Below are positions 542-45,198 of a DNA stretch of 51,585 nt, one piece after another. Origin of the DNA: Callorhinchus milii (taxonomy: Eukaryota); assembly GCF_018977255.1 (NCBI RefSeq), contig NW_024704767.1:198416-250000 (forward strand), in the 5' to 3' direction. The first letter of the stretch is position 1; the number at the start of each line of letters is the position of its first letter. Both the position numbers and the translations under genes were made by a program. The notes beneath the pieces are model-generated. The model made no database searches. It was not told the DNA's origin and saw only the letters and a list, made by a program, of their open reading frames with translations.

Positions 542-577
<36 letters not shown>

Positions 578-17834: not shown

Positions 17835-19467
17835 CAGTAAATTCACACGTTTCAGTGCCATGATAGCGTGCAAAGATTAAATCTTATTTTATTATTATAC
17901 TACAGAGCCTAGAACTGGGCTTTTTTTTTTACTAACTTCTTTAACCTGACCCCGAAATCACAATAGTGTGCAGTCAAAACACTTTGAAAACACTTTGATT
18001 TCCCAAATTTAGCTCGACTCTCGGTCTGTCTAAGTGCACCAAATAAAGTCTTGTGCAACAAAACAGGGCATATCTGCACCCAAGAGATATGGGAATCTAA
18101 GTGAGTCTAGCAATATGGTCTGAAACTTTATTTAACCTTTGCAATGCACGTCTTAAATGGGCAACAAGGTCTTTCTCTTGAGCAATGTATTCATTACTCG
18201 TGTCTCGAGATCTCAAACTATTTAGAACCGACTGTGTTTATCAATCCATTATTTAGGCTTGACGCAACTGTGAACTGGGCTCTCAAAATATTTGCGGTCT
18301 GCTTTGTTTTGTTGTTGCAGTTTAGGCCCCTATCTGTGCTCTGTGGAGAGCTCCATCTGCTACGGACAATATTGCGACACCAACATGGGGGTTTGTCAGG
18401 AAGCCAAATGTTGAAGGGAAACTGTTGAATTCACCATTTTCTCAGCCTCGAGAAGTGGGATTTGGAACTGACATCGTCCAGACACAGTGCGAGGAGTGAG
18501 CTCCGCATTGACAAAGAGGTATCGTCCTTTGGATGAAACCGAGGTCCTGTCTACGTGTTCAGGTGACTTCAAAGATCCTGTGTTGCTAATCAAAAAGAGG
18601 AGGGAGTTTCTCCCATCTGCTGGCGTAACAATTCCCTCCTAATCATTTTTCATTCACCTCTTGGCTGTTTGTGGCATTGTGTTGGTGCAAACAGTTGTCT
18701 CATTCGCCTCCAAAAAGTCACAACACAAGACAGTAACCGATTGTGAGGAGTTTTGGCTCATGTCAATGTAATAGTTGCTATAATTAGGAAAACTACAAAC
18801 AAGGAAATCATTTGGCCCCAAGTAAACTGTTCTGCCAGTTGATTAGATCACAGTAAACCTTTGAATCCTTTTCTTCATGTACCTTAATACATTTTCCTCC
18901 CAGGTATCGAGCAATACCCTTTCAAAAACATGCCATTTGACTGCAACAAGAATCTCCTAGGAACAGTGCGAGCCACATTATTATAAACGTCTTTGTGAAG
19001 AAAGCATCTTTTAATTAGAGCTTAGCTCTAAGGCCATCCTTTGTTTTAAGATCCCTCTAAAATGTTCTTCATCATTCAACGCAGTTTTTTGTTTAGAGAC
19101 CCGAGTGCAAGGACAGTCTACAGGGCTGTTGGTTCTAAAATACCTGCTAGGTTAGATATATTAGGCAGGACTCAGCTATCTATAGCCAGTGATATGGATA
19201 CTTTAATGTCAGAGAATGCGTACGCAGCCAGTCATTGCAACCAAACAAGCAACTAAAAGGAAACAAGCCTGTAGGATAGGGTTGTGTTTTGCTTCAATTG
19301 GAGCCGTTAAATATCAAATTCAATCCTCTCCGGGTGCTGTTGGGGGAACCTGTTTCCCTGAGACCTAGGGTTCCAGACTTCAGGTTCAATTCCAGTCGGC
19401 TCTAAGAAGTTTATCAAGGAAAGTGATCTATGATCGCAGGGTCTGACTAAAGCAAGGCCTGGGGGAG

Positions 19468-20838
19468 ATGCAGCCGGCAGGGTATCTGGGTGTGAGAGTG
19501 GAGGAGGAACTTTTCTCTGTTGAGAAGGCGATGCTGGCTGAGAGCAGTGAGTACTTCCGGGCTCTTTTCGACTCAGGAATGCGGGAATGTTCCCAGCAGG
19601 AAATCCGGGTGCAGGGGCTGACAGCACGTGGCTTTAGGATCCTGCTCCAGGTTCTGGCGGGCGAGAGGCCAATCCTGGCGGGCGAGGAAATCATCGACGC
19701 GATAGAGTGTGCCGCTTTCCTCATAGCCAAGCCTCTGTCAGAGCACATGGTGCACACCATCAGCTCCAGTAACTGTGTCCTGATGTTCCAGGCAGCGGCC
19801 ACCTATGGGCTGTTTGACTTGACCCAGGCCTCGGCTCTGTTCATGAGAGATCTTTACCCCAACGTCAGGGAGGAACTGAGATGTTTGCCCAAAGATGAGC
19901 TGAGTTACATCGAGTCCTTTTCTCCTAGCACCTTGGTGTCCGTGGCCACTCACACGCCCTCCCAGGGCTTCCTGGATGACGTGTTCAGGACCTTCTGTTA
20001 CCTGGACGAGGGTGAGAATGTGTGGAAGACACTGACGGCCTTGCCGGACAAGGCTACCACCTCTCTGGCCGGCGTCACCATGATGGGCAACAACATCTAC
20101 ATCGTGGGGGGGGTCTGCGCCTACAACAAGCGGCTGGTGGAGCTCAGCTTCTGCTACAACACGGCCGAGGATCGCTGGAACGAATTCCCTTGCCCTCAGC
20201 AGCTCCGCTACAGCCTGACCCTGACGGGACAGGACGGGAGTCTTTACGCCCTCGGTGGGATGTATCAGAACGTGGCTCTGGCCTCCGTGGAGCGATACCA
20301 GGTGGCGACCAGCACATGGTCCTCAGCAGCCCACCTGCCCAGGCCGGCCGAGAGCGTGGCTTGCACCCGGGCCATGGGCCGGATCTTCGTGTGCCTCTGG
20401 CTCCCCATGGACACCACCGATATCTACGAGTATCGGTGCGCGGAGGACACCTGGGCCTTGGTGACCACCTTGAGACGGCCCCAGAGTTACGGCCACTGCA
20501 TGGTGGCTCACGCCGACAACCTGTACGTCATGCGCAACGGACCGGCGGACGACTTCCTGAGATGCGCCATCGACTGTTTCAACCTGACCCGGCACCAGTG
20601 GAGCGCGCTGTCCGGCCAGTACGTCAACAGCAAAGGGGCGCTGTTCACCGCGGTCGTCAGAGGGGACTCGGTCCTGACGGTTAACAGAATGCTGACCTTG
20701 GTCTATGATATTCAGAACGACAAGTGGAAGCCGGCCAAGGAGAAGAGGGGCTTTCCTCGCAGCGGGTCCATGCACACCTTCCTACTCAGGCTGCCCAACC
20801 AGAGACCCGCAGCTCTGCACCCCGAACTGCCTTCATAA
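19468..20838 (+). CDS. KBTBD13: Kelch repeat and BTB domain-containing protein 13 (intronless CDS, 456 aa)
   Basis: N-terminal BTB (SEYFRALFDSGMRE), kelch repeats (IYIVGG, LYALGG, VERY), NSKGALFTAVVRGD and LYVMRNGP motifs; syntenic between RASL12 and UBAP1L. Confidence 0.97.
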   Translation: MQPAGYLGVRVEEELFSVEKAMLAESSEYFRALFDSGMRECSQQEIRVQGLTARGFRILLQVLAGERPILAGEEIIDAIECAAFLIAKPLSEHMVHTISSSNCVLMFQAAATYGLFDLTQASALFMRDLYPNVREELRCLPKDELSYIESFSPSTLVSVATHTPSQGFLDDVFRTFCYLDEGENVWKTLTALPDKATTSLAGVTMMGNNIYIVGGVCAYNKRLVELSFCYNTAEDRWNEFPCPQQLRYSLTLTGQDGSLYALGGMYQNVALASVERYQVATSTWSSAAHLPRPAESVACTRAMGRIFVCLWLPMDTTDIYEYRCAEDTWALVTTLRRPQSYGHCMVAHADNLYVMRNGPADDFLRCAIDCFNLTRHQWSALSGQYVNSKGALFTAVVRGDSVLTVNRMLTLVYDIQNDKWKPAKEKRGFPRSGSMHTFLLRLPNQRPAALHPELPS

Positions 20839-20985: not shown

Positions 20986-21640
20986 GTCATAGAATCATAC
21001 AGCACAGAAGGAGGCCATTTGGCCCATCGGGTCTGTACCGCTCTTTGAAAAGAGCGTCCAATTCAACCCCACTCCCCCGCTCTCTCCCATAGCCCTGATC
21101 AACCCCACTCCCCCGCTCTCTCCCCATAGCCCTGATCAACCCCACTCCCCCGCTCTCTCCCCCATAGCCCTGATCAAACCCACTCCCCCGCTCTCTCCCT
21201 ATAGCCCTGCAAACTCGTCCTCCCCAAATAATTATCTACTTCACTTTTAAAAGATGTTATCGAATCGGCTTCCACCAGCCTTTCAGGCAATGCATTCCGG
21301 ATCCCAACACCTCGCTGTGTGAAAACATTTCTCCTCCTCTCCCCTCTGTTTCTTTTAACAGCTATTTTAAAATCGGTGCCCTCAGGTTACCGACCCACCG
21401 CCAGTGGGAATAGTTTCTCCTTGTTCACCCTATCGAATCCCCTCATAATTTTGAAAACTTCTATTAAGTCTCCTCTTAACTTTCTCTGCTCCAAGGAGAA
21501 TAATCCTCGCTTCTCTCACCTCTCCTGATAACTGAAGGCCCTCATTCCTGGTACCATCCTGGTAAATCTCCTTTGCACCCTCTCCAATGCCTAGACATCC
21601 TTCCTAAAGTGTGTGGCCCAGAACTGAACACAGTCTCTAG
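20985..21640 (-). mobile_element. CR1-type LINE 3' fragment containing a 4x ~36-bp tandem repeat (21061-21209)
   Basis: Minus strand gives degenerate PHFRKDV.ALERVQRRFTRMVPGM (CR1 RT end) and an ATTCTATG-like tail. Confidence 0.8.
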
Positions 21641-27456: not shown

Positions 27457-27589
27457 TCAGGATCGTGTCATGAGCTCTTCCAGTGCTCTCCCCTGATGGT
27501 TGTTGTGGACGAGAAGAACTTCCTTGATATCTTCGTGTTGGAAGCCCCATCTCATTGAACTGCGTCACCAGAGTCAGGAATTCTGCCGC
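27457..27589 (-). CDS. UBAP1L: UBAP1L terminal exon (apparent +1 frameshift at 27545-27548)
   Basis: AAEFLTLVTQFNEMG then, one base shifted, FQHEDIKEVLLVHNNHQGRALEELMTRS* (last UBA of SOUBA). Confidence 0.9.
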
Positions 27590-28315
27590 CTGCAGTCATG
27601 AAAAGGGCGAGTAAGAGAGAGGTCACGAGAGGTGAAAACAGTTCAGAAGAACACCACATAAGAGGTTTGGATGAAGAAGAACCCTTTGGCCCATTTGATT
27701 TCATCTTTGCTGAATGCCAACCCCATTGCAGTAACAAGCGGTTTCTTACGGGTGTCCTATGTTCTGGCTGCAGACACCCTTCCTGTTTTGTAACACAATA
27801 ATCCTTGCATTTAATGTCATGCCTTATCACGTTGTCGAGACGTCTCAAAGCGCTTTCAACACAAGGTTTATTGTAAAGTGTAGTTGGCTGTATTTTAAAT
27901 AGATTGTGGTGTTATTTGCGACTTTCGCAAACCAGATTTGATGTACTAATTGCACCTTTCAGTTTGCGAATACCATGTAGGGAGTGCTTGCTGCTGGATC
28001 CACTGGCCAGTGTGTGTGTGAGGGTTCTGTTTGAGGACTTTTATCGATTTTCAGGCGTCACAATTAATCTTTTGGACGAGTCTTGCAAACTCTCAAAATA
28101 GGGAGAGGAAATCCCAATCAGCACACCGAGGCAAATCTCGTTTCCAACCATCACAAAGTAAATAATAATATTAATCCTTGTATTTTATGTGATCACGTCA
28201 TTGAGACGTCTCAAAGCGCTTCATATAATATACTGTCAAGTGAATTGAGTGTGTATTTTGCGGGCGAATTTCCTGTTAAGGAGCAAATGCACCAATGAGG
28301 AACACACTCTCTGAC

Positions 28316-28417
28316 CTTTGCTTCCGAGTTCTGGAATATCTCCAAGGCTTCTTCCACCAGAGGCTCCTCATAGCCCTCCTTGCACAGTCGGTCCCAGGCA
28401 CTCAGGTAAGCCACAAT
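28316..28417 (-). CDS. UBAP1L: UBAP1L exon (SOUBA)
   Basis: IVAYLSAWDRLCKEGYEEPLVEEALEIFQNSEAK; 102 nt, phase 0-0. Confidence 0.93.
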
Positions 28418-28481
28418 CTGACACATAATCAGTCAGTTAAAAGACAGAACTAAAAAAGAAACTCTCCGCACATAGAGAGCA

Positions 28482-28845
28482 GTAATAATAATAATCCTTG
28501 CATTTTGATAGAGCGTCTTATCACGTCATTGAGATGTCTCAAAACGCTTCACAGAATACACCGTAAAGCAAATCGACTGTGTGTTTTGTGGGCGCACAGC
28601 AGTGTCCCCCACACAGTCGTGGATTGAGTGACCCAATTTTTTTCTCTTTTTTTTTGCTTTTTAGGGATTATTACCCCCGGTAAGTGATCCGCAATCAACT
28701 AACAACCGGGTTCCTACTTACTGCTAGGTAAACAGAGACTGTGTGGAGTAAGAAAGCTTATCTAAGGCTTCGCACTGCCTGGGAATCAAACCTGGGTCCT
28801 CTTGGTAGTGAGGCAAACGCTCTAACCACTACTCCACGGGACTCC
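28482..28845 (-). mobile_element. Full-length tRNA-derived SINE (long subfamily)
   Basis: Colinear with 17461-17834. Confidence 0.85.
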
Positions 28846-29443
28846 TATAATATCAAACTATCAAAACCTGAGACTGCAACACAGTTAGAGATTTCTTATT
28901 TACTGCCTTGGAGGAGTGCATGTCTACAAAGCTCAAAGGGTTTTAAAATCACACAATTCAAGGTGTTGATCCCATTTATAAAATCGTGTGTTTGGGGCAA
29001 ATATTTATTTATGCAGGACTCTCTGTTCTTAAAAATTAAAAATAAAGCCAAGAAAAATGGTTCTTAAGGGACCAGAGCTGCTCCGATAGATATTTATTGT
29101 GATTAACATTCGCTAATTTAGATTCTCCCCTTTTGTTGTCTCTCGTCACTATTTTCAGTGTTGGACGTTGGCTGAGAGGTTAAATGATTGTGAATCAAGA
29201 GAGGTTTCTGGTCTGGTGCCTGGCTCTCTGGTTTCCTTGCTCCTTGTTTGGCCACAAGGGCTGGATGGGTTGGTTATTGGTGGCCTTGCTCTCCCTCTCC
29301 TCCTCTCCCTCTTCCCCTCTGCTCCTCCCACTCATCCTCCTCCCACTCCCATCTCCCTCCCTCCCCCCCATCTCTCTTCCCCCCTCCCATCCCCCTCCCT
29401 CTCCCGCTCCCCCCCGTTACCAGTTAACAGATGAGTCACCAAC

Positions 29444-29653
29444 CTGTTGTGTACTCCGTTGTCCAATGTTCTGGATGGCCCAAATGACTCTCCTGATAGG
29501 ATAGCCCCGATCTACAACAGTCTGGATGAGCTCCTGCTCTTTTTGGCTCAGTGCCAGCAGCAGGTCAGAGTAAGAGTCTGGGAGAGGTTTGTGAGAATCT
29601 AAAGGCTTCGAGGTTGATGGAGGCGCCGGAAGGCAAGAGTAAGGGCTGAGAGA
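29444..29653 (-). CDS. UBAP1L: UBAP1L exon (linker + first UBA)
   Basis: SLSPYSCLP...DLLLALSQKEQELIQTVVDRGYPIRR...; 210 nt, phase 0-0. Confidence 0.93.
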
Positions 29654-30226
29654 CTGGAAAAGAGCAGAGCGAAAACAAACCTTCAGAACAGAGGCACAAG
29701 AATAGACAAGCTGTCGAGAGCAATGGATCTATAAAAGAATCTGGTTTATTTTTGCCCAGCGAGGGGTTTGTTTCACAGTCTACTAGCTATTAGCTATTCC
29801 CAGTCCCTCTCTGCAACCATCACATTCCTCAATCTCAAGGTCAGAAGGGCCCTTACCCTGGGCTATTCCCATTGTGATCAGATTACTTGTGCTATTTGGG
29901 TTCCCAAAGTAAACAGAGCATTGGTTACTTTCCTCACAACGTCCTTCGGCTGAACGATAATCATCTTGCAGTATTTTAGATTGTTGTCCGCAAGACAATC
30001 AAATCTTTACCCCTCCTCCTTCCCACCCAAAACCCACAGGTTTCTAAGTATTGTAACAATGAGGAAGCAGATTGTGGCTCATGGAAAACAACAACAACAA
30101 CATGCATTTATCTAGCACCCTTCACGCAGGGCGGTGTCCCAGAGCGCTTGTTCTAGCCAAGCCGGGAGGCACGGATATTGAGATCTGGATTGAATTCTCA
30201 GGGCAGTGGTGATCGGGAGCTCTCAC

Positions 30227-31015
30227 CGGGATTGGCGGCTTGTGTCTTCGAATGGGGGCTATAGGGCTGGGCGGGGAAGACCTGGCCAGGTGTCGCCGGG
30301 TGAAGGCGAGAGGAGGACTTCCAGATCCGAACTGCGGCATGAATGGGTTTTTGCTGTTCCTGTTGGGCTGGAGTTGAGAGAAGGATTTGCGGTAAAGTTT
30401 CTTGGGCGCTTGTTGTTGTTGGTGGTGATGATGATGGTCCTGCAGCCAACTGGGGCTGCATCTCTTGCCCACCTCCTGCTCGGCGTCTGTGCCGCTCGAG
30501 TGAGTCGACATCTTCAGCCCATAGATGTGGGGGAGTCTGGTGACGTTGACGTTCCGGTGCTTCTCACAGTATTTACTCCGCGAAGCGCTGTCCAAGAAAG
30601 GCGAGGAGGCTGGCCTGCCGTCCAGCAGCCTGGAGTATGAATTACATTTGACTCTGGGGATGGGCACTGAGGGAAGCTTGAACTTCTTGTCCTCGCTCTC
30701 GTCCGAGGAGGAGAGTTCGTCGTCCTCCGAGTAACCGTCGTCGCTCTCTGACGAGATGTAGGCGACCCGGGGGCGAATGTGGCGGTCGTCGGTCACGCTG
30801 AAACTCCGGCACCTGCGGGTCTGCAGAATCACGTGGCCTCTCATGGCCTTGGAGTAATCGCAGGGGCTGTCGTCGTTCGGATCCTCGGAGCTTTCCTCCT
30901 CGGGATCGGGGAAGGCCAGCCAGAAGGGCGGGCACGTGGGCACAGCCCTGACCCGCTCCGTCACCCCGCGCTCTCTGATCCACTCCAACACCTCCTTTTC
31001 CAGAGAGAAGTCATA
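30227..31015 (-). CDS. UBAP1L: UBAP1L large exon (end of UMA + disordered region)
   Basis: Starts YDFSLEKEVLEW (UMA C-terminal motif), PPFWL, ends IAPIRRHKPPIP|GTGAG; 789 nt. Confidence 0.93.
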
Positions 31016-33315
31016 CTGCAAGAGATCGCACACAATACACCGACTTCACTCAACAACGGAATTAGGCCTTCGTTTGACTTACGCCCGCCACCTCTTCGCC
31101 CTCCGATCCCCCCCCCCACCCCACAAAAAAAAGTTTTCAAAGATAATTTGAGTTATTATTAATGTCTATGAGTTATTATCCCCGGAAAACGATCTGTCAA
31201 TCAACCAACAACCGGGTTCCTATTTACTGCCAGGTAAATAGAGGCGTGTGTAGTAAGGAAACTTGCCTAAGGTTTCATTTCGTCCCTCCCCGGAATCGAA
31301 CCCGGGTCCTCTCACTTGCGGCGCGAGCGCTTGAACCACTACGCTACAGGGGGTTTTTGGAGGAACAAAAGTAATCAACACCTTTCAAGGCCACAAGTTA
31401 TTCATTTAACATTACTAAACTAGTTTTATCTGCACCCCCTTAGGCAAGAACGTACAGGAGGCAGTGGCAGCAATCTTTTTTGTAAACAAAATCTTTCACG
31501 TTTAAATACCATCAATAATCCAACAACACTTAATCACGTTCTGTTCCTCTTCAAAGAAGGGAATTTTTTTTAGAGTGAGAAACACACTTTGAACCCTGCT
31601 GGAATACAAAGTCACAAAAATAGCACTGATTTAACTCTCAAATATTTACAGGTTAAATCGCAATGTAAGCCATTCCAAATAAGACTTAAAATTGCTATCA
31701 GATCAAAGTGTTCCTTCAAAAGCTTTACACTGGCACAATATCCCTTCAGCCTAATCAAATTATTTCAGGTTAGCAGAGGACAAACTCCTAGGAAAATAAC
31801 ATGACATTTATAGACTGCAGGAAAGAAAGATTAATAATAATCCTTGCACTTGAGATGGCACCTTATATCATCGAGACATCTCAAGACACTTCACAGGATT
31901 TACTGGAAAGTGGATTGGTCGTGTCCCACATGGATCAGTGTCTTGGGACGTCTTCCCGACGTGAAAGGCACTATACAAATGTAATTTTGTTGTTCTTGTT
32001 GTTGAAATGAATGACCAAATTTTTTTTTAAAACAAACAACATTAAAATACAGCACCTGATTATATTGTTGGAAGATCTCAAAGCACTTCACGGGATTTAT
32101 TGTAAAGTGACTATACATTTTGCAAGCGAAGGCACTGGCCAATCTGCACACCGCAGCCATGATGTGAATGGCCAAGTTTTATTAACTGGGGGATTGTTGG
32201 CCAGGACATTGCAAGACAACCCCTTCTCCTTGAAGAGTCTGGCCAGCAGTTAGCAGACAGTAATCATATGCCAACACCTTCCACGCTCCACAGATGTGCA
32301 CCAGCCAGGGCTGAGTGGGGAAGAGCGAGTGTGCATGTGACTACTTCCACTTCAAACCGATGGCCCATTTATATAGTGCCCTTCATGTGGGGGGGGGGGG
32401 GGTAGTGTTCAACAGCCACGAGGTGCCAGCGTACGTGACAGCAAAGCCGCTTTGTTGGGGTCACCAGCTGGAGTAAGTTGAATCATTCGGTTTCCAAGAA
32501 GCAAACAACAATCTGCTTACACCATTTGATTAGCTTCTTGGTCCTGCTGTATGCAGGGGCTTAGTGTCCTTACATCACATAGGCTTTAGTGGAACAGCTG
32601 CTAAGCCATTCGTCCACAAAAACTCACGTTATCTAAGGAACCTGCAGATTAGGGTTATATACGCCTTTCCTATTGGTTGAGTGCCCTGTTCCAAGGCTTT
32701 AATATTCTGTCACTTAATCTTGCTGGTCAGGGTCATTCCTTATTATCTACTTTCCTTAAGGTTCTTTGGTAAATCTGGAACTCTCTAAAGATTCATTGGA
32801 TTTTCTATTCACGTCTTCGTGTCCTGCAATCTATGTTTGTGTCAAACATGCTTTTGGTTGCATTAGTCATTTTGTGTTTAAAAATAACCTGTATCTCTCA
32901 ATCCCCCCCCCCGCGCATTACATCAGTGGAATCTCAGGTAAATGGGACTGAATGGATTGCTCTTTCAAAAAGCCAGCAACGAGATGTTGGCCTGAATCAA
33001 TGTCCATGGCATGATCTGAAAGGATAACAAGAGTTTTTCCTCCCAGTGTCCTGCCAACAATCCTCCAGATAAAATTGGTCATTCACTTAATGGCTGTTTG
33101 TGGGGCATTGCTGGGTACAAATTGACTGCCACGTTCACCTGCAAAAATCCACGGTCATTACATTTTACAGTAAATCCTGTAAAGCATTTTGTGAATGTCC
33201 TCCCGAAGCAGAAGGTATGAAATACAAGGATTATTATCAGACTGATGCTTTGTATATGCAGTATGGATTTACACTAAGAGAAAAGGAACTGAACTGTTTT
33301 GCCTTGACATATTAC

Positions 33316-33458
33316 CTGCGTTTGCGTCAATATCTCAAAGCAATGAGTCAAGCAGATATCTGGCAGAGGGGAAATTACCACACGTTCTTCTGCAGAGTTA
33401 TTCTCCAGTGCTGCAGAAATTCTAAAGGATATTTCTTCCAAACAGCTCGACGATCCAC
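33316..33458 (-). CDS. UBAP1L: UBAP1L UMA-domain exon
   Basis: GSSSCLEEISFRIS...PDICLTHCFEILTQTQ, joins in frame to YDFSLE; resembles the UBAP1 LDDVPFK..PDCLQVV.EVQ segment; phase 1-0. Confidence 0.88.
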
Positions 33459-33681
33459 CTAGATAGTTAAAATGATCAACAATGGATTAATTAATCGGGT
33501 CAGAGTTCCTGCCTCATATACACGAACACAACACGTAACACAAATCTCCAGAATCCCATCGAACAAGATTTACCTCATGAAACATTACAGCATGAAACCA
33601 TAACTGTGCAATCTGCTATTCAGTCATGTTTGCGTAATCCACTCATAATAAAATGACATTAATAATATCTGAATCACTTAC

Positions 33682-33738
33682 CCACGCTACTGTACACCTC
33701 AGCTTCTGAGCTGCTCATTATTTCACCCCAAGTACAAT
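33682..33738 (-). CDS. UBAP1L: UBAP1L 57-nt exon with in-frame ATG at 33718
   Basis: tcttcctttcAG acceptor, (D)CTWGEIMSSSEAEVYSSV, G|GTAAGT donor, phase 1-1. Confidence 0.65.
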
Positions 33739-35208
33739 CTGAAAGGAAGAAAAATAAACATCAACCACTGATCAATGAATGTTGCAAAGGGTAACAAACT
33801 CAATATTTGGTTGACTATCCCACGGTTAGAGAAGGAAAAATCCCTTGAATAGAAACCAGAAACTAGTTTCTCCCAGTTTGTTGGCAACCAATTCTCCAGA
33901 TCAAAATTGTTAATTCGCTGGACACTGCTGTGCACAAATTGGCAACCACATTTGCCTACAAATACACAGTCGCTATCTTTTAGAGTACAACCTCTGAAGC
34001 GCTTTTTGAGACATTTTTGATGATGGAATAGGATGCGTTATCAAGGGCAAGGATTATTATTGTATCAAATCAAGCTGTTGCCATTCTGCCTTGGTGCATG
34101 CTACAGAAGATTGTGAACATTATTGCTAATGATCTATTCATTCTTGGGTTGTATTTAATCACATCAATTAACTACTTGGACCTGCGCACGTAGTCAGACG
34201 GGGTTGTGCCGATCGCTTGTGTTGTTCACTGGATGGGGTTTATAATTAAACTCATCCTCTGATAATGGCGTGAGTCAGACTGACTGGATTAGCAATGGAA
34301 AGATTATTCCTCTTGGGCACGTCACCAGACTAGATGGGACAGCTTTGTCTGATGTGGTCAAATGTCACCAGTAAGCAGATCAGGGGGGAGGGGGTGGGTA
34401 GAGGGATGTAAACAAATAAGCTTCACTGTGCAATGATCAGTGATCACAAACATGCCCCGAATCCAAAGCATCCACGTTAAACACAATGGGTCATTTTTCT
34501 GCATTTCTAGACATGTTTCGCCCACAACATACACAGTGAATCCACTTTACAACATATTCTGTGAAGGCAGTAAGGTGCTGTATCAAATGCAAGGATTATT
34601 ATTATTATTATAGTAATAAGTTAACAGCCTTTTCAGTCAGGTAGAAGATTTCTGAAAGGGAAGTTACGATTTTATCTAAAACCAAACTTTGTTTTCCTGC
34701 ACTGTCCAATACAGAGTGCAGCTCTCATACCCAAAAGATGCATCTTTTTTAACACTAAGCTGGGTTACTGCTCCAACTTGCTAGATTCCAGTACTTTTAA
34801 AAATTCACAGCAGCTTTTTTTGATACTGTATATAAAAAGGAATTGACAAACTGACTGCACGTAGGTTAAAAGGGAGTAACTTTTGAGCCGTTAAAAGTGG
34901 GTGGGAGGTGGTAGGTATCAATACGTGCCAGTCCACTTATACACTGAGTCACAGACTGAGTGTTGTGGAAAACATGAAATCACTTAAGAAACTCTCTCTC
35001 TCTCTCATTAAATCTGCTGTTATTACCAGTTGCACTGATAATTGTTTTGCAAAGCACATTCCATTCCTTCCCCATTATTGCAGCCCGTTTCCTCACATTA
35101 CAAAATTGGAAGAGAAACAAATCCTTCTAAAAATCTCTCCTTTTAAGGCAGGCAGCTTGATATTTTCTCAGGTGGCTTTGACAAGAGTTGAGCATCGTAA
35201 TGACTCAC

Positions 35209-35251
35209 CCACCGTTGATTTTAAGCTGCGAAAGGAGAGGAGACGTAACAT
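35209..35251 (-). CDS. UBAP1L: Candidate upstream first coding exon of UBAP1L
   Basis: MLRLLSFRSLKSTV + G|GTGAGT, phase 1, in frame with both downstream exons; acceptor at 35262-35263. Confidence 0.4.
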
Positions 35252-35642
35252 GCACCAGTGGCTAGACATTGGAAACAGGCAGTAAACAGGGCAGAAATGA
35301 TTTCACTTCAGTATTTTGACGCTGAAAATTGCTATTTATATATCCAATGAACAAAAACTAAAATTAAAGGAATACAAATAGTAATTGAAACGTGAGCAGT
35401 TAATTCATCTGAAATTTCTTCATCTGAAATCCACTGCAGCCTGTTGGCCTTCAGGTGCCTTATCATGTCTACATCATAACAACAGCTGAGCACAAGTCTT
35501 ATTAAAGTCCATTAAAATAAAGGGAACATCTTAAACATCAAAGAAAAAATGAAATATATAAGCCTTTTTAAAAAGCCTCTTATAACTATAATGTGTCTAT
35601 AGATGTGTCGGCTAGCATTTAAAAAAATGTAGCATGGCTTAC

Positions 35643-35960
35643 GGTGACAGATCCAACTCTGGAAGCGAGTTGTTGATATGACGAGGTCTTTCTTGTTCAG
35701 TAGCTGCTCACTGAAACCACCGCTGTGTGTTATTCTGAAGCTGTCCAGAGGAAGACTGATTGCGGATTAGTACTGCTTGCTATGATGGACAGGAGAGTCT
35801 TAAAGTATCCCTGCATTAACGTAACTAATACACTGCATTTGAACACATTCCTCCTTTTTCTTCATTTAAAATCCATTAGATAGAAAGGACTCCAGTTGCA
35901 TCGATAGCCCTATTGACTTTACTTATCCAGTTTACATTTAATCCAGATATTTAATCCCAG
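35643..35960 (-). promoter_or_regulatory. Candidate UBAP1L promoter / non-coding first exon
   Basis: Donor GTAAGC at 35642; three TAATCC (CRX/OTX-type) sites at 35764, 35939 and 35952. Confidence 0.4.
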
Positions 35961-37147
35961 ACCCAATGAAATTCTAAACAAACAAAAGCCCGAACCAGTG
36001 TCAGCACTGGGACCAAGAGACCCAACTCCTCCAGGAAATCGTCTTGTTTGCCCAACATTAGGCGGGCAACAAACCGAACTGAACCCGTTGGGCTGTTAGA
36101 TAATTACTCACTCGCCCATTAACTGAATCTCCCTCATACTCAACTGTTTCCCCACAGAAAATGAATCCAGATATTGAGTACTGATTTGTAAACGTTGAGG
36201 TCTATCAGCATTTGAACATTCTAAATTAGTGCAAAATTTTGATTATTCCCCCAAAAAAGCAAACAGTGGCTCTTCATTTTTAATCAGCATCTTAATATTT
36301 TTTTAAAGCCTAAAATACTCCTCAACAACAACAAGAAGATTTAATTTATAGAGCGCCTTTCACGTCGGGAGGACGTCCCAAGGCGCTGGACAGTTGGGTC
36401 AGGACCCGAGCAGTGGGGGGAAATGGTCAGGGTGAGGGGAGGGAAGGGAGGGAGCGAGGAGGGGGTAGAGAGTCGAGAGGGGAGCTGAAGGCACGGTCAA
36501 AGAGAAGTCCTCACTAATCTAACTGATCTGCCAGTCAAGGAACATCATAACCTAACTGCCCAAACACACCTCCCTGACCGCAGCTGCCAACAGTGGAACA
36601 TGTCCCACTTTGATCACTCAGCTACTGCCGCCTGCTGGATGCAGCAGCGATCGACACATCTTACAGAAAGCGAGCACACAACCAGCACGAGGGCTTCACT
36701 CTGCACGTTTTTAAACGAAAAAATACACATCTTTGAAATACCAGTGTCTTCTCTGTAACAAATCAGAAATGCACTGTGAACTAAATTAGAGAATCATCAT
36801 TCAATACATCTGTTTAAATAAGATACCCCCGAGTACAATATTCAGTGCAAATTGTGGTTGATGCTTTCTTGCTGCTCACTTGCATGTAAAGGGCAATGAA
36901 GACTGGATTTGAAATAGATTTATTTTTAAAAAAATATTTCTCGTTGGGACGTCGCACAATGCTCTTATACATCGCCCATCGCCCATTTTCTCAGTTTGAA
37001 TCCTTCAGTTTTCTGCATTCAGATAGACCATCATCGAAATATTTACAAAGCTCTAAATTCAGAATGCGAGTTCCATCTTTATTTGTAGTGAAAGAGTCTT
37101 TGCAGGATACAAAATATTTCCAGTCACAGAGAACGGAGGTGAACAAG

Positions 37148-37280
37148 TCACCAGCTCTCACTCTGTCCCAATGCTGTTGCCCACGTGTCGTGAGAAGGTG
37201 GGACTGGAAAGACCCAGCCATGTGGTACAAAACTGCCATCGGGGTGATCTTCAGGGACGAGATATCGATCCCATTCTTGC
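37148..37280 (-). CDS. PDCD7: Duplicate copy of PDCD7 terminal exon
   Basis: Identical translation to 41515-41647, intact acceptor. Confidence 0.8.
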
Positions 37281-37692
37281 CTAACAGGGGAAAAGAGAGA
37301 GAGAAAAATAACTAGTACATCCCCTAACACAAATACATTCTCTGCAAAATACATACAGGACTTCAGGGTGGGTTATTTGTTTGCGTGGCTGGTTGCTTCA
37401 GCATTTCACACTTGGCTCAGCAAACCGAGTGAACGCCTGCTTTGGCCAAAGCTCAGATTTTGGCTTCTCTCATCCCATCGTAGGGACGTTCTCCCGAAAC
37501 GAAAGGCGATACACAAATGTAATTTGTTGTTGTTATGCAAGTATAAGAGAAAACCCATTATATAATATACAAAGGGAGTTTGCAATAAGAGTGCCACAAT
37601 GTAAAAAAGACCCATCTATAACAGAAGATTAAAACAGAGTACCCATCCCTTTTCTTAGCTCAGTCTTATATGTCTCAGCCTTGACATATTAC

Positions 37693-38095
37693 CTGCGTTT
37701 GCGTCAATATCTCAAAGCAATGAGTCAAGCAGATATCTGGCAGAGGGGAAATTACCACACGTTCTTCTGCAGAGTTATTCTCCAGTGCTGCAGAAATTCT
37801 AAAGGATATTTCTTCCAAACAGCTCGACGATCCACCTAGATAGTTAAAATGATCAACAATGGATTAATTAATCGGGTCAGAGTTCCTCCCTCATATACAC
37901 GAACACAACACGTAACACAAATCTCCAGAATCCCATCGAACAAGATTTACCTCATGAAACATTACAGCATGAAACCATAACTGTGCAATCTGCTATTCAG
38001 TCATGTTTGCGTAATCCACTCATAATAAAATGACATTAATAATATCTGAATCACTTACCCACGCTACTGTACACCTCAGCTTCTGAGCTGCTCAT
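37693..38095 (-). CDS. UBAP1L: Duplicate copy of UBAP1L 5' coding exons (38059-38095, 37693-37835)
   Basis: Identical to 33682-33718 and 33316-33458, with intact splice sites. Confidence 0.75.
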
Positions 38096-41000
38096 TATTT
38101 CACCCCAAGTACAATCTGAAAGGAAGAAAAATAAACATCAACCACTGATCAATGAATGTTGCAAAGGGTAACAAACTCAATATTTGGTTGACTATCCCAC
38201 GGTTAGAGAAGGAAAAATCCCTTGAATAGAAACCAGAAACTAGTTTCTCCCAGTTTGTTGGCAACCAATTCTCCAGATCAAAATTGTTAATTCGCTGGAC
38301 ACTGCTGTGCACAAATTGGCAACCACATTTGCCTACAAATACACAGTCGCTATCTTTTACAGTGTAATACCTCTGAAGCGCTTTTTGAGACATTTTGGAT
38401 GATGGAATAGGATGCGTTATCAAGGGCAAGGATTATTATTGTATCAAATCAAGCTGTTGCCATTCTGCCTTGGTGCATGCTACAGAAGATTGTGAACATT
38501 ATTGCTAATGATCTATTCATTCTTGGGTTGTATTTAATCACATCAATTAACTACTTGGACCTGCGCACGTAGTCAGACGGGGTTGTGCCGATCGCTTGTG
38601 TTGTTCACTGGATGGGGTTTATAATTAAACTCATCCTCTGATAATGGCGTGAGTCAGACTGACTGGATTAGCAATGGAAAGATTATTCCTCTTGGGCACG
38701 TCACCAGACTAGATGGGACAGCTTTGTCTGATGTGGTCAAATGTCACCAGTAAGCAGATCAGGGGGGAGGGGGTGGGTAGAGGGATGTAAACAAATAAGC
38801 TTCACTGTGCAATGATCAGTGATCACAAACATGCCCCGAATCCAAAGCATCCACGTTAAACACAATGGGTCATTTTTCTGCATTTCTAGACATGTTTCGC
38901 CCACAACATACACAGTGAATCCACTTTACAACATATTCTGTGAAGGCAGTAAGGTGCTGTATCAAATGCAAGGATTATTATTATAATAGTAATAATTTAA
39001 CAGCCTTTTCAGTCAGGTAGATTTCTGAAAGGGAGGTTACGATTTTATCTAAAACCAAGCTTTGTTTTCCTGCATTGTCCAATACAGAGTGCAGCTCTCA
39101 TACCCAAAAGATGCATCTTTTTTAACACTAAGTTGGGTTACTGCTCCAACTTGCTAGATTCCAGTACTTTTAAAAATTCACAGCAGCTTTTTTTGATACT
39201 GTATATAAAAAGGAATTGACAAACTGACTGCACGTAGGTTAAAAGGGAGTAACTTTTGAGCCGTTAAAAGTGGGTGGGAGGTGGTGGGTATCAATACGTG
39301 CCAGTCCACTTATACACTGAGTCACAGACTGAGTGTTGTGGAAAACATGAAATCACTTAAGAAACTCTCTCTCTCTCTCATTAAATCTGCTGTTATTACC
39401 AGTTGCACTGATAATTGTTTTGCAAAGCACATTCCATTCCTTCCCCATTATTGCAGCCCGTTTCCTCACATTACAAAATTGGAAGAGAAACAAATCCTTC
39501 TAAAAATCTCTCCTTTTAAGGCAGGCAGCTTGATATTTTCTCAGGTGGCTTTGACAAGAGTTGAGCATCGTAATGACTCCCCACCAGTTGATTTTAAGCT
39601 GCGAAAGGAGAGGAGACGTAACATGCACCAGTGGCTAGACATTGGAAACAGGCAGTAAACAGGGCAGAAATGATTTCACTTCAGTATTTTGACGCTGAAA
39701 ATTGCTATTTATATATCCAATGAACAAAAACTAAAATTAAAGGAATACAAATAGTAATTGAAACGTGAGCAGTTAATTCATCTGAAATTTCTTCATCTGA
39801 AATCCACTGCAGCCTGTTGGCCTTCAGGTGCCTTATCATGTCTGCATCATAACAACAGCTGAGCACAAGTCTTATTAAAGTCCATTAAAATAAAGGGAAC
39901 ATCTTAAACATCAAAGAAAAAATGAAATATATAAGCCTTTTTAAAAAGCCTCTTATAACTATAATGTGTCTATAGATGTGTCGGCTAGCATTTAAAAAAA
40001 TGTAGCATGGCTTACGGTGACAGATCCAACTCTGGAAGCGAGTTGTTGATATGACGAGGTCTTTCTTGTTCAGTAGCTGCTCACTGAAACCACCGCTGTG
40101 TGTTATTCTGAAGCTGTCCAGAGGAAGACTGATTGCGGATTAGTACTGCTTGCTATGATGGACAGGAGAGTCTTAAAGTATCCCTGCATTAACGTAACTA
40201 ATACACTGCATTTGAACACATTCCTCCTTTTTCTTCATTTAAAATCCATTAGATAGAAAGGACTCCAGTTGCATCGATAGCCCTATTGACTTTACTTATC
40301 CAGTTTACATTTAATCCAGATATTTAATCCCAGACCCAATGAAATTCTAAACAAACAAAAGCCCGAACCAGTGTCAGCACTGGGACCAAGAGACCCAACT
40401 CCTCCAGGAAATCGTCTTGTTTGCCCAACATTAGGCGGGCAACAAACCGAACTGAACCCGTTGGGCTGTTAGATAATTACTCACTCGCCCATTAACTGAA
40501 TCTCCCTCATACTCAACTGTTTCCCCACAGAAAATGAATCCAGATATTGAGTACTGATTTGTAAACGTTGAGGTCTATCAGCATTTGAACATTCTAAATT
40601 AGTGCAAAATTTTGATTATTCCCCCAAAAAAGCAAACAGTGGCTCTTCATTTTTAATCAGCATCTTAATATTTTTTTTAAGCCTAAAATACTCCTCAACA
40701 ACAACAAGAAGATTTAATTTATAGAGCGCCTTTCACGTCGGGAGGACGTCCCAAGGCGCTGGACAGTTGGGTCGGGACCCGAGCAGTGGGGGGAAATGGT
40801 CAGGGTGAGGGGAGGGAAGGGAGGGAGCGAGTAGAGAGTCGAGAGGGGAGCTGAAGGCACGGTCAAAGAGAAGTCCTCACTAATCTAACTGATCTGCCAG
40901 TCAAGGAACATCATAACCTAACTGCCCAAACACACCTCCCTGACCGCAGCTGCCAACAGTGAAACATGTCCCACTTTGATCACTCAGCTACTGCCGCCTG

Positions 41001-41514
41001 CTGGATGCAGCAGCGATCGACACATCTTACAGAAAGCGAGCACACAACCAGCACAAGGGCTTCACTCTGCACGTTTTTAAACGAAAAAATACACATCTTT
41101 GAAATACCAGTGTCTTCTCTGTAACAAATCAGAAATGCACTGTGAACTAAATTAGAGAATCATCATTCAATACATCTGTTTAAATAAGATACCCCCTGAG
41201 TACAATATTCAGTGCAAATTGTGGTTGATGCTTGCTTGCTGCTCACTTGCATGTAAAGGGCAATGAAGACTGGATTTGAAATAGATTTATTTTAAAAAAA
41301 ATATTTCTCGTTGGGACGTCGCACAATGCTCTTATACATCGCCCATCGCCCATTTTCTCAGTTTGAATCCTTCAGTTTTCTGCATTCAGATAGACCATCA
41401 TCGAAATATTTACAAAGCTCTAAATTCAGAATGCGAGTTCCATCTTTATTTGTAGTGAAAGAGTCTTTGCAGGATACAAAATATTTCCAGTCACAGAGAA
41501 CGGAGGTGAACAAG

Positions 41515-41647
41515 TCACCAGCTCTCACTCTGTCCCAATGCTGTTGCCCACGTGTCGTGAGAAGGTGGGACTGGAAAGACCCAGCCATGTGGTACAAAAC
41601 TGCCATCGGGGTGATCTTCAGGGACGAGATATCGATCCCATTCTTGC
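41515..41647 (-). CDS. PDCD7: PDCD7 exon 5 (terminal)
   Basis: QEWDRYLVPEDHPDGSFVPHGWVFPVPPSHDTWATAL, matches the PDCD7 C-terminus; phase 2 acceptor. Confidence 0.95.
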
Positions 41648-42095
41648 CTAACAGGGGAAAAGAGAGAGAGAAAAATAACTAGTACATCCCCTAACACAAA
41701 TACATTCTCTGCAAAATACATACAGGACTTCAGGGTGGGTTATTTGTTTGCGTGGCTGGTTGCTTCAGCATTTCACACTTGGCTCAGCAAACCGAGTGAA
41801 CGCCTGCTTTGGCCAAAGCTCAGATTTTGGCTTCTCTCATCCCATCGTAGGGACGTTCTCCCGAAACGAAAGGCGATACACAAATGTAATTTGTTGTTGT
41901 TATGCAAGTATAAGAGAAAACCCATTATATAATATACAAAGGGAGTTTGCAATAAGAGTGCCACAATGTAAAAAAGACCCATCTATAACAGAAGATTAAA
42001 ACAGAGTACCCATCCCTTTTCTTAGCTCAGTCTTATATTTTAGTGATTATATTTTAATATAGGGTCATCGCATCCTTGCTCCTCAGAACTCTTAC

Positions 42096-42180
42096 CTTAT
42101 TTGCACAAGTACATGAGGAGAGTGCTCGGCTTGCAGATAATATTGACGAAATGGCCTCAGTGGATGGTTTGAAGGCAATT
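42096..42180 (-). CDS. PDCD7: PDCD7 exon 4
   Basis: ELPSNHPLRPFRQYYLQAEHSPHVLVQIR; 85 nt, phase 1-2. Confidence 0.95.
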
Positions 42181-42674
42181 CTGTAATGAAGTAAAGTGAA
42201 TAGATGAGGCATTTGGTACTCCTTTATAGTTTGCCTAAATGACAATATTATCAAAAAAACATGTGGCGACTCAATCCCGGATTGTTTGTGGGACACTTGT
42301 ATTTTGTGGGCAGAACACGACAGCCACAAAACACACAACAACAACAAAATTACATGGGGGTCGGGATCGGGGAGGGTCAATTCACTTTACAATATAGCCT
42401 GTGAAGCACTTTGAGACGTTTCACTAACGTGATAAGATACTATATCAAATGCAAGGATTATTATCATCATTACACAGGCAATGAGGCATATGAATCACTA
42501 TCTTTAACCTCCGTCTCAATCACTAATAGTGAAGCCCTCATCACTGTACTAATGTACTGGGTCACACAGGAGCACTTATTTATCTGTAGAACAACCCAAA
42601 ATATCTGTACTACATTCCACTCTTAATCTCTTTATTTATAAAACACTTAAAACAGGATCTACAATGAATGTTAC

Positions 42675-42911
42675 CTGGATCCCCAAACATTATGAATTCC
42701 ACTTCTCTCTGTTGTTCCTCCAGCTTTTCCCTCTGTTTTTTCAATTTATTCTCCCTCTCTCTTTTCCTTTCTTCCTCTTGCTCCCCTTCCAGCATGACTC
42801 TCAGGGCTCTTTCTTCTGCGTCGTACAGTTCACTCCGCTTTTTAATCATTTTTCGCAGTCCCTCAACGTGAAGCTGAAATATTTCATCGGATGAAGGAGG
42901 GGGATGGACGG
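42675..42911 (-). CDS. PDCD7: PDCD7 exon 3
   Basis: VHPPPSSDEIF...IKKRSELYDAEERALRVMLEGEQEEERKRE...FGDP; 237 nt. Confidence 0.95.
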
Positions 42912-43042
42912 CTGCGGAAAACGGGTCAGATGCATTTCGGATTTAACTTTGCCCGAAATTAAGAGTTGAACTCGTTTGCAAATATAATCAACGGGCACAA
43001 AAAAATGACTCTGCCGTGAATACGGGCTCAGCCGCCTCTCAC

Positions 43043-43181
43043 CTTTCCTGGCTGCAGCTTCTTTCCTGAGTTTCCTCAGCTTCTCCAGCGCACACAGGAT
43101 ATCCAGAATCCTTTTCGCGTCTGCCTGTTTCTTTCGCACTTCAGCCAAGACGCTGTCTGCTGCAGCTTTCAGCTCACGTTC
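43043..43181 (-). CDS. PDCD7: PDCD7 exon 2
   Basis: ERELKAAADSVLAEVRKKQADAKR...LRKLRKEAAARK; 139 nt. Confidence 0.95.
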
Positions 43182-43476
43182 CTGCAAAACAACAACAACA
43201 ACAACAAGATTCCATTTATTGAGCGTCCATTTCACGTCGGGAGGACGTCCCAAGGCGCTGTACAGTTGGGTCGGGACCTAACAGAAGGATAGCCATTGCA
43301 ATCCACGCCCCAGATAATAATACTCGCGCTTCGATAAAGCGCTTTATCGCGTGGTTGAGAGGCGTCTCGGAGCGCTCCGTGGGAGATACCGCAAGGCGGT
43401 TCGCCTGCGTATGACGGCCGCTCCCCCCCAGCACTGGGGTTGGGAGTGTCACCTCAGACGATTGATTGATTGATAG

Positions 43477-43815
43477 TGGAGTCCTGTGGCTCAGTGGTTA
43501 GAGCACTCGCTTTGCAAGTGAGAGACCTGAGTTCAATTCCAGGCAGAGGGCCAAACCTTGGGCAAGTTTCCTTACTCCACACAGAGCCTAATAATAATCC
43601 CTCCAAAACAAAAAACAATAATAAATTGGTCATTTTCAATGTACGACTGTTTGTAGGACATTGCTGTGCGCAATTGGCCGCCGCGTTCGCCCACAAACAT
43701 ACAGTCAATTCACTTTACAGTGTGTTCTGTGAAGCGCTTTGGGACGTCCTCCCGACGTGAAAAGCGCTATATCAAATGCAAGGATTATTATGATTATTAT
43801 TATGATTATTATTAT
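43477..43815 (+). mobile_element. Full-length tRNA-derived SINE (young subfamily)
   Basis: Near-identical to 542-884 and 6291-6618. Confidence 0.93.
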
Positions 43816-44046
43816 CCCAAGCCTTGGACGCGGGGCTTGAACCCGCAACCCTCTGCGACTCAAAGAGTCCAAACAAAAAAAAGAAGACGACTCAAAGAGC
43901 GTGGCCACCGAGAGCCCGGCCGGCAACACCAAATGAGACGCAAGTCGTCCGGATGACAGCGCGGCACACGACGACGACGACGGCGGCGACAGAGAGAGGC
44001 GATACGTCCCCGGGGGGGTCGCGGCGGCGGCGGCCGCGCTGCGCAC

Positions 44047-45198
44047 CTTCTTCTTCTCCTCCACTTGGCGGACCCGCTTCGCCCTCCACTCGTCGATCCC
44101 CGCTTCCCGCTCCGCCGCCCTCTCCCCTCGCTCCCGGCCCTCCAGGCCCAGCTCTTCCTTCTTCCTTCGGGCCCGGCTCCTCCTGGTCTCGATCCTCCCG
44201 AGTCTCCTTCGCACGGCCGCCACGTAGCCGGCGTCGGTCAGCGGCCTCAGCTCGGCCTCCAGGGCCTCCTTCAGCTCGAGCGCCTCCCGGTGGGTCTCGG
44301 CCCAGGCCGCGTCGTCCTCCACGCTCTGCCTCAGCCGCCGGCACAGGGCCGTGAGCTCGGCCGTGAGGCGGCACACGCCGAGGATGGACTCCCGCGCCTC
44401 GGCCACCGAGGGCCCGGGCTCGGGGGGCCCGCGCGGCTCGGGCGGCCGCAGCCTTCGGCGGGACAGGACCCTCGACAGCCAAAGGCGCGCTCGTTCGGAC
44501 GGATCCTCGGGGCCTTCCGGGCTCCCGGCGGGCGGCGGCCGCCCGCTGAGGGTCCCGGCTGCCGGCCACCAGGCGGGCGGCGCCTCGCAGCTGCTGCTGC
44601 CGCCGCCGCCGCCGGCGCCGGCGCGGCGGGGCCCGGGCTCGTCGCTCCAAGGCGGCAGCTCCCCGTAGGCGTGCGGGAAGGCGCCGCCCGGGTCGCCGCG
44701 GCCGTGGTCCGCCGGGTGGAGCTGCCGAGGCCCGGGCCCGTCCACCCGGTGAGGGCCGCCGTTCTCCGCTGCTCTGCCCGGGAAGGGCTGGTGCTGAGGC
44801 GGCGGGTGATCCCGAAACGGGCGCTGCTGCTGCTGCTGCTGCTCCTGAGGCCCGGCCTCCAGCGGCTGGAGGCCGAGGTGATGAGGAGGGAGCGGCGGCG
44901 GCTGCTCCTGACACGGATGGTACCGACCTGCCTCCTGTCCCTGAGGAGGAGGAGGAGGAGGTGGAGGGTATCGCTCGGCTCCCGCCGACAGAGGCGGCCG
45001 CTCCCACAGGGGCCGAGGAAAGTCCCGCTGCTCGAGGCCCCACGGCCCGAATGGCGGCGGCGGGGTCCTGGCCTCCTCTGCCCTGTCCCTCCCCGGCCTC
45101 AAGTGAGGGTACGCCGGCCCCGGGCTCTCCACTCCTCCTCGGCCGAAGTAGCCGCGGCCCGGGCCGGGCGGGGGAGGCCGGTAACCGCCACGATCCAT
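44047..45198 (-). CDS. PDCD7: PDCD7 (U11/U12 snRNP 59K) exon 1; whole protein ~581 aa
   Basis: Strong Kozak gcggccATGG at 45198, Pro-rich N-terminus, then coiled region ending IDEWRAKRVRQVEEKKK|GTGCG. Confidence 0.92.

What the first reader, a model, noticed from the sequence alone, without database searches (positions are those of the whole stretch)
36919..40340. Duplication junction builds a potential chimeric UBAP1L-PDCD7 mini-gene
Seen (minus strand): copy B supplies the UBAP1L upstream region, the ATG exon (38095-38059) and the UMA exon (37835-37693) with its GT donor. Fifteen nt later the junction switches into PDCD7 intron 4, giving a 412-nt hybrid intron. That intron ends at the intact acceptor of the duplicated PDCD7 last exon (37280), followed by AATAAA signals (37083, 36924). 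The donor is phase 0 and the acceptor phase 2, so the exon is read off-frame as ARMGSISRP-stop (TGA 37253-37251), predicting a 69-aa protein. Established: a stop in the last exon normally escapes EJC-dependent NMD; UMA domains insert into the ESCRT-I core; UBAP1L is retina-enriched. Inference: a newborn gene making a UMA fragment that lacks the YDFSLE motif and the ubiquitin-binding SOUBA domain, either inert or an ESCRT-I decoy.
Basis: partly seen in the sequence, partly recalled or inferred. Interest (0 to 1): 0.8.

Follow-up and report, generated by a model that had tools for sequence, protein, structure and literature searches.

The report
Polymorphic duplication fuses two neighbouring genes
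In the elephant shark, a real 4.4-kb duplication carried by apparently only some individuals places the start of the eye gene UBAP1L in front of the last exon of its neighbour PDCD7, which would give a short out-of-frame hybrid message whose product is likely inert; this is an ordinary kind of raw material for new genes, and its expression is untested.

Summary
The anatomy is confirmed. A head-to-tail duplication (33301-37671 and 37678-42038, 99.2% identical, 6-nt spacer) breaks in an early UBAP1L intron and in PDCD7 intron 4. It leaves a 412-nt hybrid intron with native donor and acceptor, and a predicted 69-aa out-of-frame product. It is not an assembly artefact: 1 of 4 whole-genome runs holds a contig across the junction with no mismatch and about 1.5-fold depth on the unit. 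The other 3 run through the UBAP1L breakpoint unbranched. So it is likely a segregating variant, and the copy differences match allelic diversity. The species is Callorhinchus milii. Expression was not tested: no RNA was examined, and whether the promoter lies inside the unit is inferred. The decoy idea is weak: the VPF anchor for ESCRT-I reads ISF in this gene, against VPF in 7 of 7 shark and ray orthologues and in this genome's own UBAP1. Verdict: a new member of a known kind (a segregating tandem-duplication chimera), most likely a neutral by-product. 'Newborn gene' is unproven.

The parts
33301..37671 (.). Duplicated unit, copy A; continuous with the complete UBAP1L gene to the left
   Evidence: self-BLAST and alignment
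37672..37677 (.). 6-nt spacer at the novel junction, from neither parent; no microhomology; no convincing nearby template
   Evidence: read-derived contig of run X2 over 37642-37716
37678..42038 (.). Duplicated unit, copy B; continuous with the complete PDCD7 gene to the right
40312..40330 (-). Pair of TAATCC sites (CRX/OTX-type motif, recalled); a third site at 40137; candidate photoreceptor promoter of UBAP1L copy B (inferred only)
   Evidence: 3 pairs in the window, two of them this duplicate pair; 0.23 expected; weak
40010..40016 (-). Candidate donor (GTAAG) of an untranslated first exon; not shown to be used
   Evidence: seen in sequence; inference
38059..38115 (-). UBAP1L ATG exon, copy B (ATG 38095; phase-1 donor); starts at a 3' splice site, so an upstream exon is needed
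   Evidence: N-terminus conserved in orthologues
37693..37835 (-). UBAP1L UMA-N exon, copy B (carries LEEISF where orthologues have LDEVPF); phase-0 donor
37281..37692 (-). 412-nt hybrid intron: 15 nt UBAP1L intron + 6 nt spacer + 391 nt PDCD7 intron 4
36919..37280 (-). Duplicated PDCD7 last exon with 3' UTR; read off-frame, stop 37253-37251; AATAAA at 37083 and 36924
   Evidence: the native copy matches Pfam PDCD7 positions 270-306 at E 6e-14
41286..45198 (-). Parent PDCD7, five exons, 581 aa, intact
27457..33738 (-). Parent UBAP1L, 470 aa in the database protein; the assembly has a 1-base frameshift in the last exon near 27545

Best explanation
This is a real 4.37-kb tandem duplication, likely segregating in the species, that joins the first coding exons of UBAP1L to a copy of the last exon of PDCD7; it is predicted to yield a spliced, polyadenylated, out-of-frame message where UBAP1L is active, whose 69-aa product is likely inert. 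Shown: the duplication, its junction in the reads of one run, native splice signals on both sides of the hybrid intron, one full copy of each parent gene, the frame mismatch, and the altered ESCRT-I anchor. Inferred: (1) origin by non-homologous joining of two different haplotypes, since there is no microhomology, a 6-nt insertion, and copy differences along the unit that equal standing alleles; (2) the UBAP1L promoter lies inside the unit (about 0.7); (3) transcripts from copy B splice to the first acceptor and end at the copied poly(A) signals (about 0.55 overall); (4) the stop lies 27 nt into the last exon with a 3' UTR under 350 nt, so junction-dependent NMD is avoided; (5) the peptide has no folded domain, no SOUBA, no YxFxxE segment and a non-canonical anchor, so it binds ESCRT-I weakly or not at all; (6) the allele drifts as a near-neutral variant.
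For: Duplication and junction. In X2 a junction contig has 0 differences at depth 2.7 (3.7 expected for 1 of 3 copies), and neighbouring contigs end at 37671 and 37687. Contigs of X1, X3 and X4 pass 37678 into other flanking sequence. Repeat-normalised depth of X2 on the unit is 1.53 times the mean of the other three (1.44-1.61). Copy divergence is 0.41% against 0.51-0.64% between the assembly and each run. At 4 of 6 copy-difference sites in the 1.7 kb laid, both the A-like and the B-like state occur among the 3 runs without a junction. The fusion is out of frame, which is the commoner outcome of random breakpoints. The motif is ISF here versus VPF in 7 of 7 orthologues and in this genome's UBAP1; VPF-to-AAA and LDD-to-AAA abolish binding (PMC3314968 passages; bioRxiv 2020.01.31.927327 passages). 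No 25-83-aa protein sharing words with the UMA exon was found in the protein collection (weak).
Against: No RNA was examined, so every step from promoter to peptide is inference. Contigs drop rare variants, so absence in three runs is not proven. The depth figure uses per-contig means and a repeat-based normalisation of my own. Inertness is untested: a 22-residue UMA-N fragment of MVB12A suffices to bind the ESCRT-I head, I and F keep the two buried positions of VPF, and UMA-only fragments of UBAP1 are dominant-negative when over-expressed and linked to disease in mice. At 2 of the 6 copy-difference sites (36867, 38397) one copy's allele was seen in no run; these may be assembly errors.
Confidence: 0.68

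Rival explanations
1. Real duplication, but the hybrid is never made: the UBAP1L start site lies outside the unit, or copy B is silenced by the PDCD7 termination zone. The extra unit is then a passive gene fragment.
For: The ATG exon is an internal exon with its own acceptor, and no first exon was mapped. The promoter evidence is only a motif pair at weak significance. In Drosophila yakuba 24 of 76 such chimeras showed raised expression (PMC5460883 passages).
Against: The unit holds the entire 3.1 kb between the PDCD7 poly(A) signal and the ATG exon, so any promoter in the intergenic gap is copied, with 99% identity and in its ancestral setting.
Confidence: 0.3
2. The chimera is expressed in photoreceptors and its UMA-N peptide occupies the ESCRT-I head as a decoy, as SOUBA-less UBAP1 does in SPG80, so carriers have altered endosomal sorting in the retina.
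For: UMA-N alone binds the headpiece. UBAP1 1-68 is dominant-negative on over-expression. Truncated Ubap1 escapes NMD and causes disease in mice (PMC9691459 passages). UBAP1L is retina-specific in human and mouse (PMC12704213 passages).
Against: The anchor is LEEISF, not LD(D/E)VPF. The fragment stops before the YxFxxE segment that the dominant-negative constructs retain (its match to UBAP1 Glu59 is my inference). UBAP1L's own binding to ESCRT-I is described as unvalidated. No expression data.
Confidence: 0.06
3. The main effect is regulatory: the second promoter changes UBAP1L dose, either by splicing from the copy-B UMA exon straight to the YDFSLE exon (a normal protein start) or by transcription interfering with promoter A.
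For: The copy-B to exon-4 splice is in frame and equals the normal 5' end; splices into copy-A exons hit early stops (66 and 87 aa).
Against: It needs skipping of a strong terminal exon with two AATAAA signals plus two more exons. Promoter A already sits downstream of a PDCD7 poly(A) site in the ancestral arrangement.
Confidence: 0.1
4. Assembly artefact: two haplotypes of one locus were laid end to end.
For: The copies differ only at allelic level, and the assembly has at least one probable base error nearby.
Against: The exact junction, including the 6-nt spacer, stands in run X2 with 1.5-fold depth and contig ends at both breakpoints. X2's main contigs carry alleles absent from both assembled copies (36949, the 7-nt deletion at 36970, 37765, 38263), so it is not a re-reading of the assembled sequence.
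Confidence: 0.04

Closest known systems
Segregating chimeric genes from tandem duplications in Drosophila yakuba (Rogers et al., PMC5460883, passages read; PMC4069613, listing only)
   Same: A tandem duplication ignoring gene boundaries joins the 5' part of one gene to the 3' part of its neighbour, keeps the parents, and segregates in the population; 76 such chimeras among 1116 duplications.
   Different: Here the host is a chimaera (cartilaginous fish), the fusion is out of frame so PDCD7 gives only an acceptor and poly(A) signals, and expression has not been measured.
SPG80-type truncated UBAP1 and UMA-only dominant-negative fragments (PMC9691459, PMC3314968, passages read)
   Same: N-terminal UMA region without SOUBA, from an mRNA that escapes NMD.
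   Different: It comes from the paralogue UBAP1L, is an extra copy beside an intact gene, ends before the second UMA segment, and carries ISF instead of VPF.
Tandem-duplication fusions such as KIAA1549-BRAF, anti-Lepore globin and Drosophila Sdic (recalled, no call)
   Same: Same geometry: downstream gene's 5' end fused to upstream gene's 3' end, parents kept.
   Different: Those give in-frame or otherwise functional products; nothing functional is shown here.

Membership tests
Tandem-duplication chimeric gene | Head-to-tail duplication with breakpoints inside two adjacent same-strand genes | tested here: met
Tandem-duplication chimeric gene | Junction exists in DNA, not only in the assembly | tested here: met
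   1 of 4 runs, 75-nt contig, 0 differences, 1.53-fold depth
Tandem-duplication chimeric gene | One full copy of each parent gene retained | tested here: met
   PDCD7 581 aa; all coding exons of the 470-aa UBAP1L present, with a 1-base frameshift in the assembly's last exon that the database protein lacks
Tandem-duplication chimeric gene | Transcript across the junction | not tested
   No RNA data were examined; no run is on record as RNA
Tandem-duplication chimeric gene | In-frame fusion of both proteins (protein-level chimera) | tested here: not met
   phase 0 donor to phase 2 acceptor; 9 foreign residues then stop
Established new gene | Fixed or spreading, with signs of selection | tested here: inconclusive
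   No junction piece in 3 of 4 runs (absence not proven); copied exons identical to the parent, so no substitution test is possible
UMA-domain ESCRT-I binder / SPG80-like decoy | LD(D/E)-VPF anchor | tested here: not met
   LEEISF versus VPF in 7 of 7 orthologues and in this genome's UBAP1
UMA-domain ESCRT-I binder / SPG80-like decoy | Second conserved UMA segment (YxFxxE) | tested here: not met
   encoded by the exon at 31015, outside the unit
UMA-domain ESCRT-I binder / SPG80-like decoy | SOUBA domain absent | tested here: met
   UBA2 domain at residues 431-469 of the parent only
UMA-domain ESCRT-I binder / SPG80-like decoy | Binds TSG101-VPS37-VPS28 | not tested
   no complex prediction or assay run
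False (haplotype) duplication in an assembly | Copies differ at allelic level | tested here: met
   0.41% versus 0.51-0.64%
False (haplotype) duplication in an assembly | No read support for the junction and no raised depth | tested here: not met
   one search run X2

The most novel reading that the evidence does not exclude
A photoreceptor-expressed proto-gene is caught segregating in a cartilaginous fish. It makes an NMD-resistant UMA-N peptide, or by the alternative AG 5 nt downstream a 154-aa protein with a 94-residue tail overprinted on the PDCD7 last exon and UTR, that competes for ESCRT-I or shifts UBAP1L dose, so carriers differ in retinal trafficking.
Probability: 0.07. Interest if true: 0.6.

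Novelty: new member of a known kind. Interest (0 to 1): 0.3.

Why it matters
It shows that the reference sequence at this locus carries a real, probably minor allele, so annotation and read mapping of PDCD7 and UBAP1L in this much-used outgroup genome are affected. It is a clean, PCR-testable example of exon shuffling as standing variation in a cartilaginous fish. If expressed in the eye, it would be a natural test of whether a UMA-N fragment of UBAP1L binds ESCRT-I, which is unvalidated even for the human retinal-disease gene. Without expression data it is an ordinary structural variant.

Tried and rejected
Expression: no RNA holder listed on record (X5-X12 are only guessed RNA and were not examined), so this is no evidence either way. 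Junction template: only two 6-nt matches to the spacer within 500 nt of the PDCD7 breakpoint and none near the UBAP1L breakpoint; treated as chance. Exact-spacing motif search was fitted after seeing the site and is discarded; the flexible search is used instead. Rfam on 33000-42500: 0 matches at gathering score. Pfam on the UMA exon: 0 families; on the 94-aa alternative frame: two matches below cut-off, and the window holds 98 stop-to-stop frames of 90 aa or more, so its length is unremarkable. The 337-aa length printed came from a wrong exon-5 start of mine (correct start 29653) and is dropped. Earlier scan findings: none near this place or for my words. Literature: UBAP1L+PDCD7 gave 3 unrelated listings; elephant shark with copy-number terms gave 4 unrelated listings; the 12 papers listed did not mention the species. 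No report of this variant was found in those searches; subscription journals and supplements were not seen. A complex prediction was not run: a pass would mostly reflect likeness to the solved headpiece. Dating the duplication from copy divergence was rejected because the differences are largely standing alleles.
Full report
Setting. The window is G000:C26:198416-250000 of a 992-Mb genome. Its large UBAP1L exon is 100% identical to a database protein from Callorhinchus milii (XP_007904133.1). The genes are PDCD7 (minus strand, five exons, 581 aa; Pfam PDCD7 at E 2e-26 and 6e-14) and, directly downstream on the same strand, a 470-aa UBAP1-family gene. A BTB-Kelch gene and a Ras-family exon follow. 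A second family member on contig C1 has the LDDVPF motif. I read the C1 gene as UBAP1 and the window gene as UBAP1L. That rests on the orthologue names (4 of the 7 are named UBAP1-like) and on gene order recalled from human, which comes from no call.

Observation. Self-alignment shows one long direct repeat: 33301-37671 and 37678-42038, 99.18% identical. The breakpoints lie 15 nt into the UBAP1L intron after the UMA exon and 57 nt into PDCD7 intron 4. Six bases from neither parent separate the copies, and the flanks share no microhomology. The result on the minus strand is an ATG exon (38115-38059), a UMA exon (37835-37693), a 412-nt hybrid intron and a copy of the PDCD7 last exon from 37280, with AATAAA at 37083 and 36924. 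Both splice sites are the native ones. The donor is phase 0 and the acceptor phase 2, so the exon adds 9 residues and stops, giving 69 aa.

Is it real? Copies that differ by 0.4% side by side are what a false haplotype duplication looks like, so this was the first test. I laid all 4 of the runs with a high share of words (X1-X4, of 24 listed; one study) on 36750-38450. X2 holds a 75-nt contig over 37642-37716 with no difference from the assembly, at depth 2.7. Its neighbouring contigs end at 37671 and 37687, as expected where a tandem repeat branches the assembly graph. In X1, X3 and X4 the contigs that reach 37678 carry on for 126-142 further bases of other sequence, as a single-copy allele would, and no junction piece is listed. 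After scaling by depth on three repeat-rich bins, X2 has 1.53 times the depth of the others on the unit, which fits three copies against two; a junction on one of three copies would have depth 3.7. X2's main contigs carry four variants found in neither assembled copy, so it is independent support. Limits: one contig, low depth, a pieces table cut to the longest records, and contigs cannot prove absence. I put the duplication as real at about 0.95 and as polymorphic at about 0.85.

Origin. The assembly differs from each run by 0.51-0.64%, and copy A from copy B by 0.41%. Six copy-difference sites fall in the laid stretch. At four (36830, 36927, 37888, 38359-68) both states occur among the runs without a junction. 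At two (36867, 38397) all four runs show one state, so the other is private or an assembly error. The differences are spread along the unit. The simplest reading, inferred, is a non-homologous join between two different haplotypes, or later exchange with single-copy chromosomes. Copy divergence therefore does not date the event.

Would it be transcribed? Not tested; no RNA was examined. The ATG exon starts at a strong acceptor, so an upstream exon exists. The unit contains the whole gap between the PDCD7 poly(A) signal and that exon. It holds a pair of TAATCC sites at 40312-40330, a third at 40137 and a GTAAG donor at 40015. The pair is weak evidence: two independent pairs in the window against 0.23 expected. 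That TAATCC is a CRX/OTX site is recalled. UBAP1L is retina-specific in human and mouse (PMC12704213, passages). If the promoter is inside, the first acceptor met is the PDCD7 copy with its poly(A) signals, so the 69-aa message is the likeliest product, and its last-exon stop should avoid junction-dependent NMD (established knowledge). Other splices give a normal UBAP1L start (skip to 31015), early stops (66, 87 aa), or 108- and 154-aa products that use a 94-codon alternative frame. A search for 25-83-aa proteins sharing words with the UMA exon found none, which says only that no such product is annotated there.

What would the peptide do? The VPF motif in the first UMA segment is the main anchor to TSG101-VPS37, and a 22-residue segment suffices for binding (bioRxiv 10.1101/2020.01.31.927327, passages). 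In UBAP1, LDD-to-AAA and VPF-to-AAA abolish binding, E59A affects VPS37B complexes only, and fragment 1-68 is dominant-negative when over-expressed (PMC3314968, passages). UBAP1 1-63 is enough for assembly (PMC4007767, passages), and the VPF mutant of UMAD1 loses binding (PMC10445733, passages). So losing YDFSLE does not alone make the fragment inert. But this gene reads LEEISF, while 7 of 7 shark and ray orthologues read LDEVPF and this genome's UBAP1 reads LDDVPF. The two buried positions stay hydrophobic and the proline is lost. With the second segment and SOUBA also missing, weak or no binding is the better bet. This is inference; no binding test was run. The SPG80 mouse shows that a UMA-only fragment can be harmful (PMC9691459, passages), which keeps the decoy reading alive at low odds.

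Comparison. Segregating tandem duplications that join the 5' end of one gene to the 3' end of its neighbour are well described: 76 among 1116 duplications in Drosophila yakuba, 24 with raised expression, and found at lower frequency than whole-gene duplicates (PMC5460883, passages). This case works like those at the DNA level and meets their structural definition. The transcript criterion is untested and the fusion is out of frame. It fails two sequence criteria for a UMA-type ESCRT-I binder. My searches found no report of this variant (listings only; no supplements read).

Verdict. A real, probably segregating structural variant in the reference, with a splice-competent but unproven hybrid gene that is most likely a near-neutral by-product. 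New member of a known kind; interest 0.3.

Noticed in passing
window 27592-27460, minus strand: The last UBAP1L exon has a 1-base frameshift in a short G run relative to the 470-aa database protein. This likely explains the 'low quality protein' label; probably an assembly error, but a true allele is not excluded.
   Followed up: partly
window 33458-33316 (and copy 37835-37693), minus strand: C. milii UBAP1L has ISF where 7 of 7 shark and ray orthologues keep the ESCRT-I-binding VPF motif; the parent gene itself may have weakened or altered ESCRT-I binding in this lineage. No other holocephalan sequence turned up for comparison.
   Followed up: partly
window 37311-36991 and 41678-41358, minus strand: An alternative reading frame stays open for 106 codons across the PDCD7 last exon and 3' UTR; no significant Pfam match; probably chance.
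   Followed up: partly
window 546-885, 6291-6618, 43476-43815: Three 97%-identical copies of a ~340-nt interspersed repeat (two orientations), a young SINE-like element; one lies in PDCD7 intron 1.
   Followed up: no
window 45198-44047, minus strand: PDCD7 exon 1 codes a long proline- and glutamine-rich N-terminal region (about 260 aa before the Pfam domain) in a GC-rich island (77% GC at 44001-45000).
   Followed up: no
window 19447-20838, plus strand: Single-exon BTB-Kelch gene (KBTBD13-like by recalled gene order) between UBAP1L and a Ras-family gene.
   Followed up: partly
window 13601-13786 and 21063-21209: A 12-nt-unit tandem array and a short 36-nt-spaced tandem repeat.
   Followed up: no
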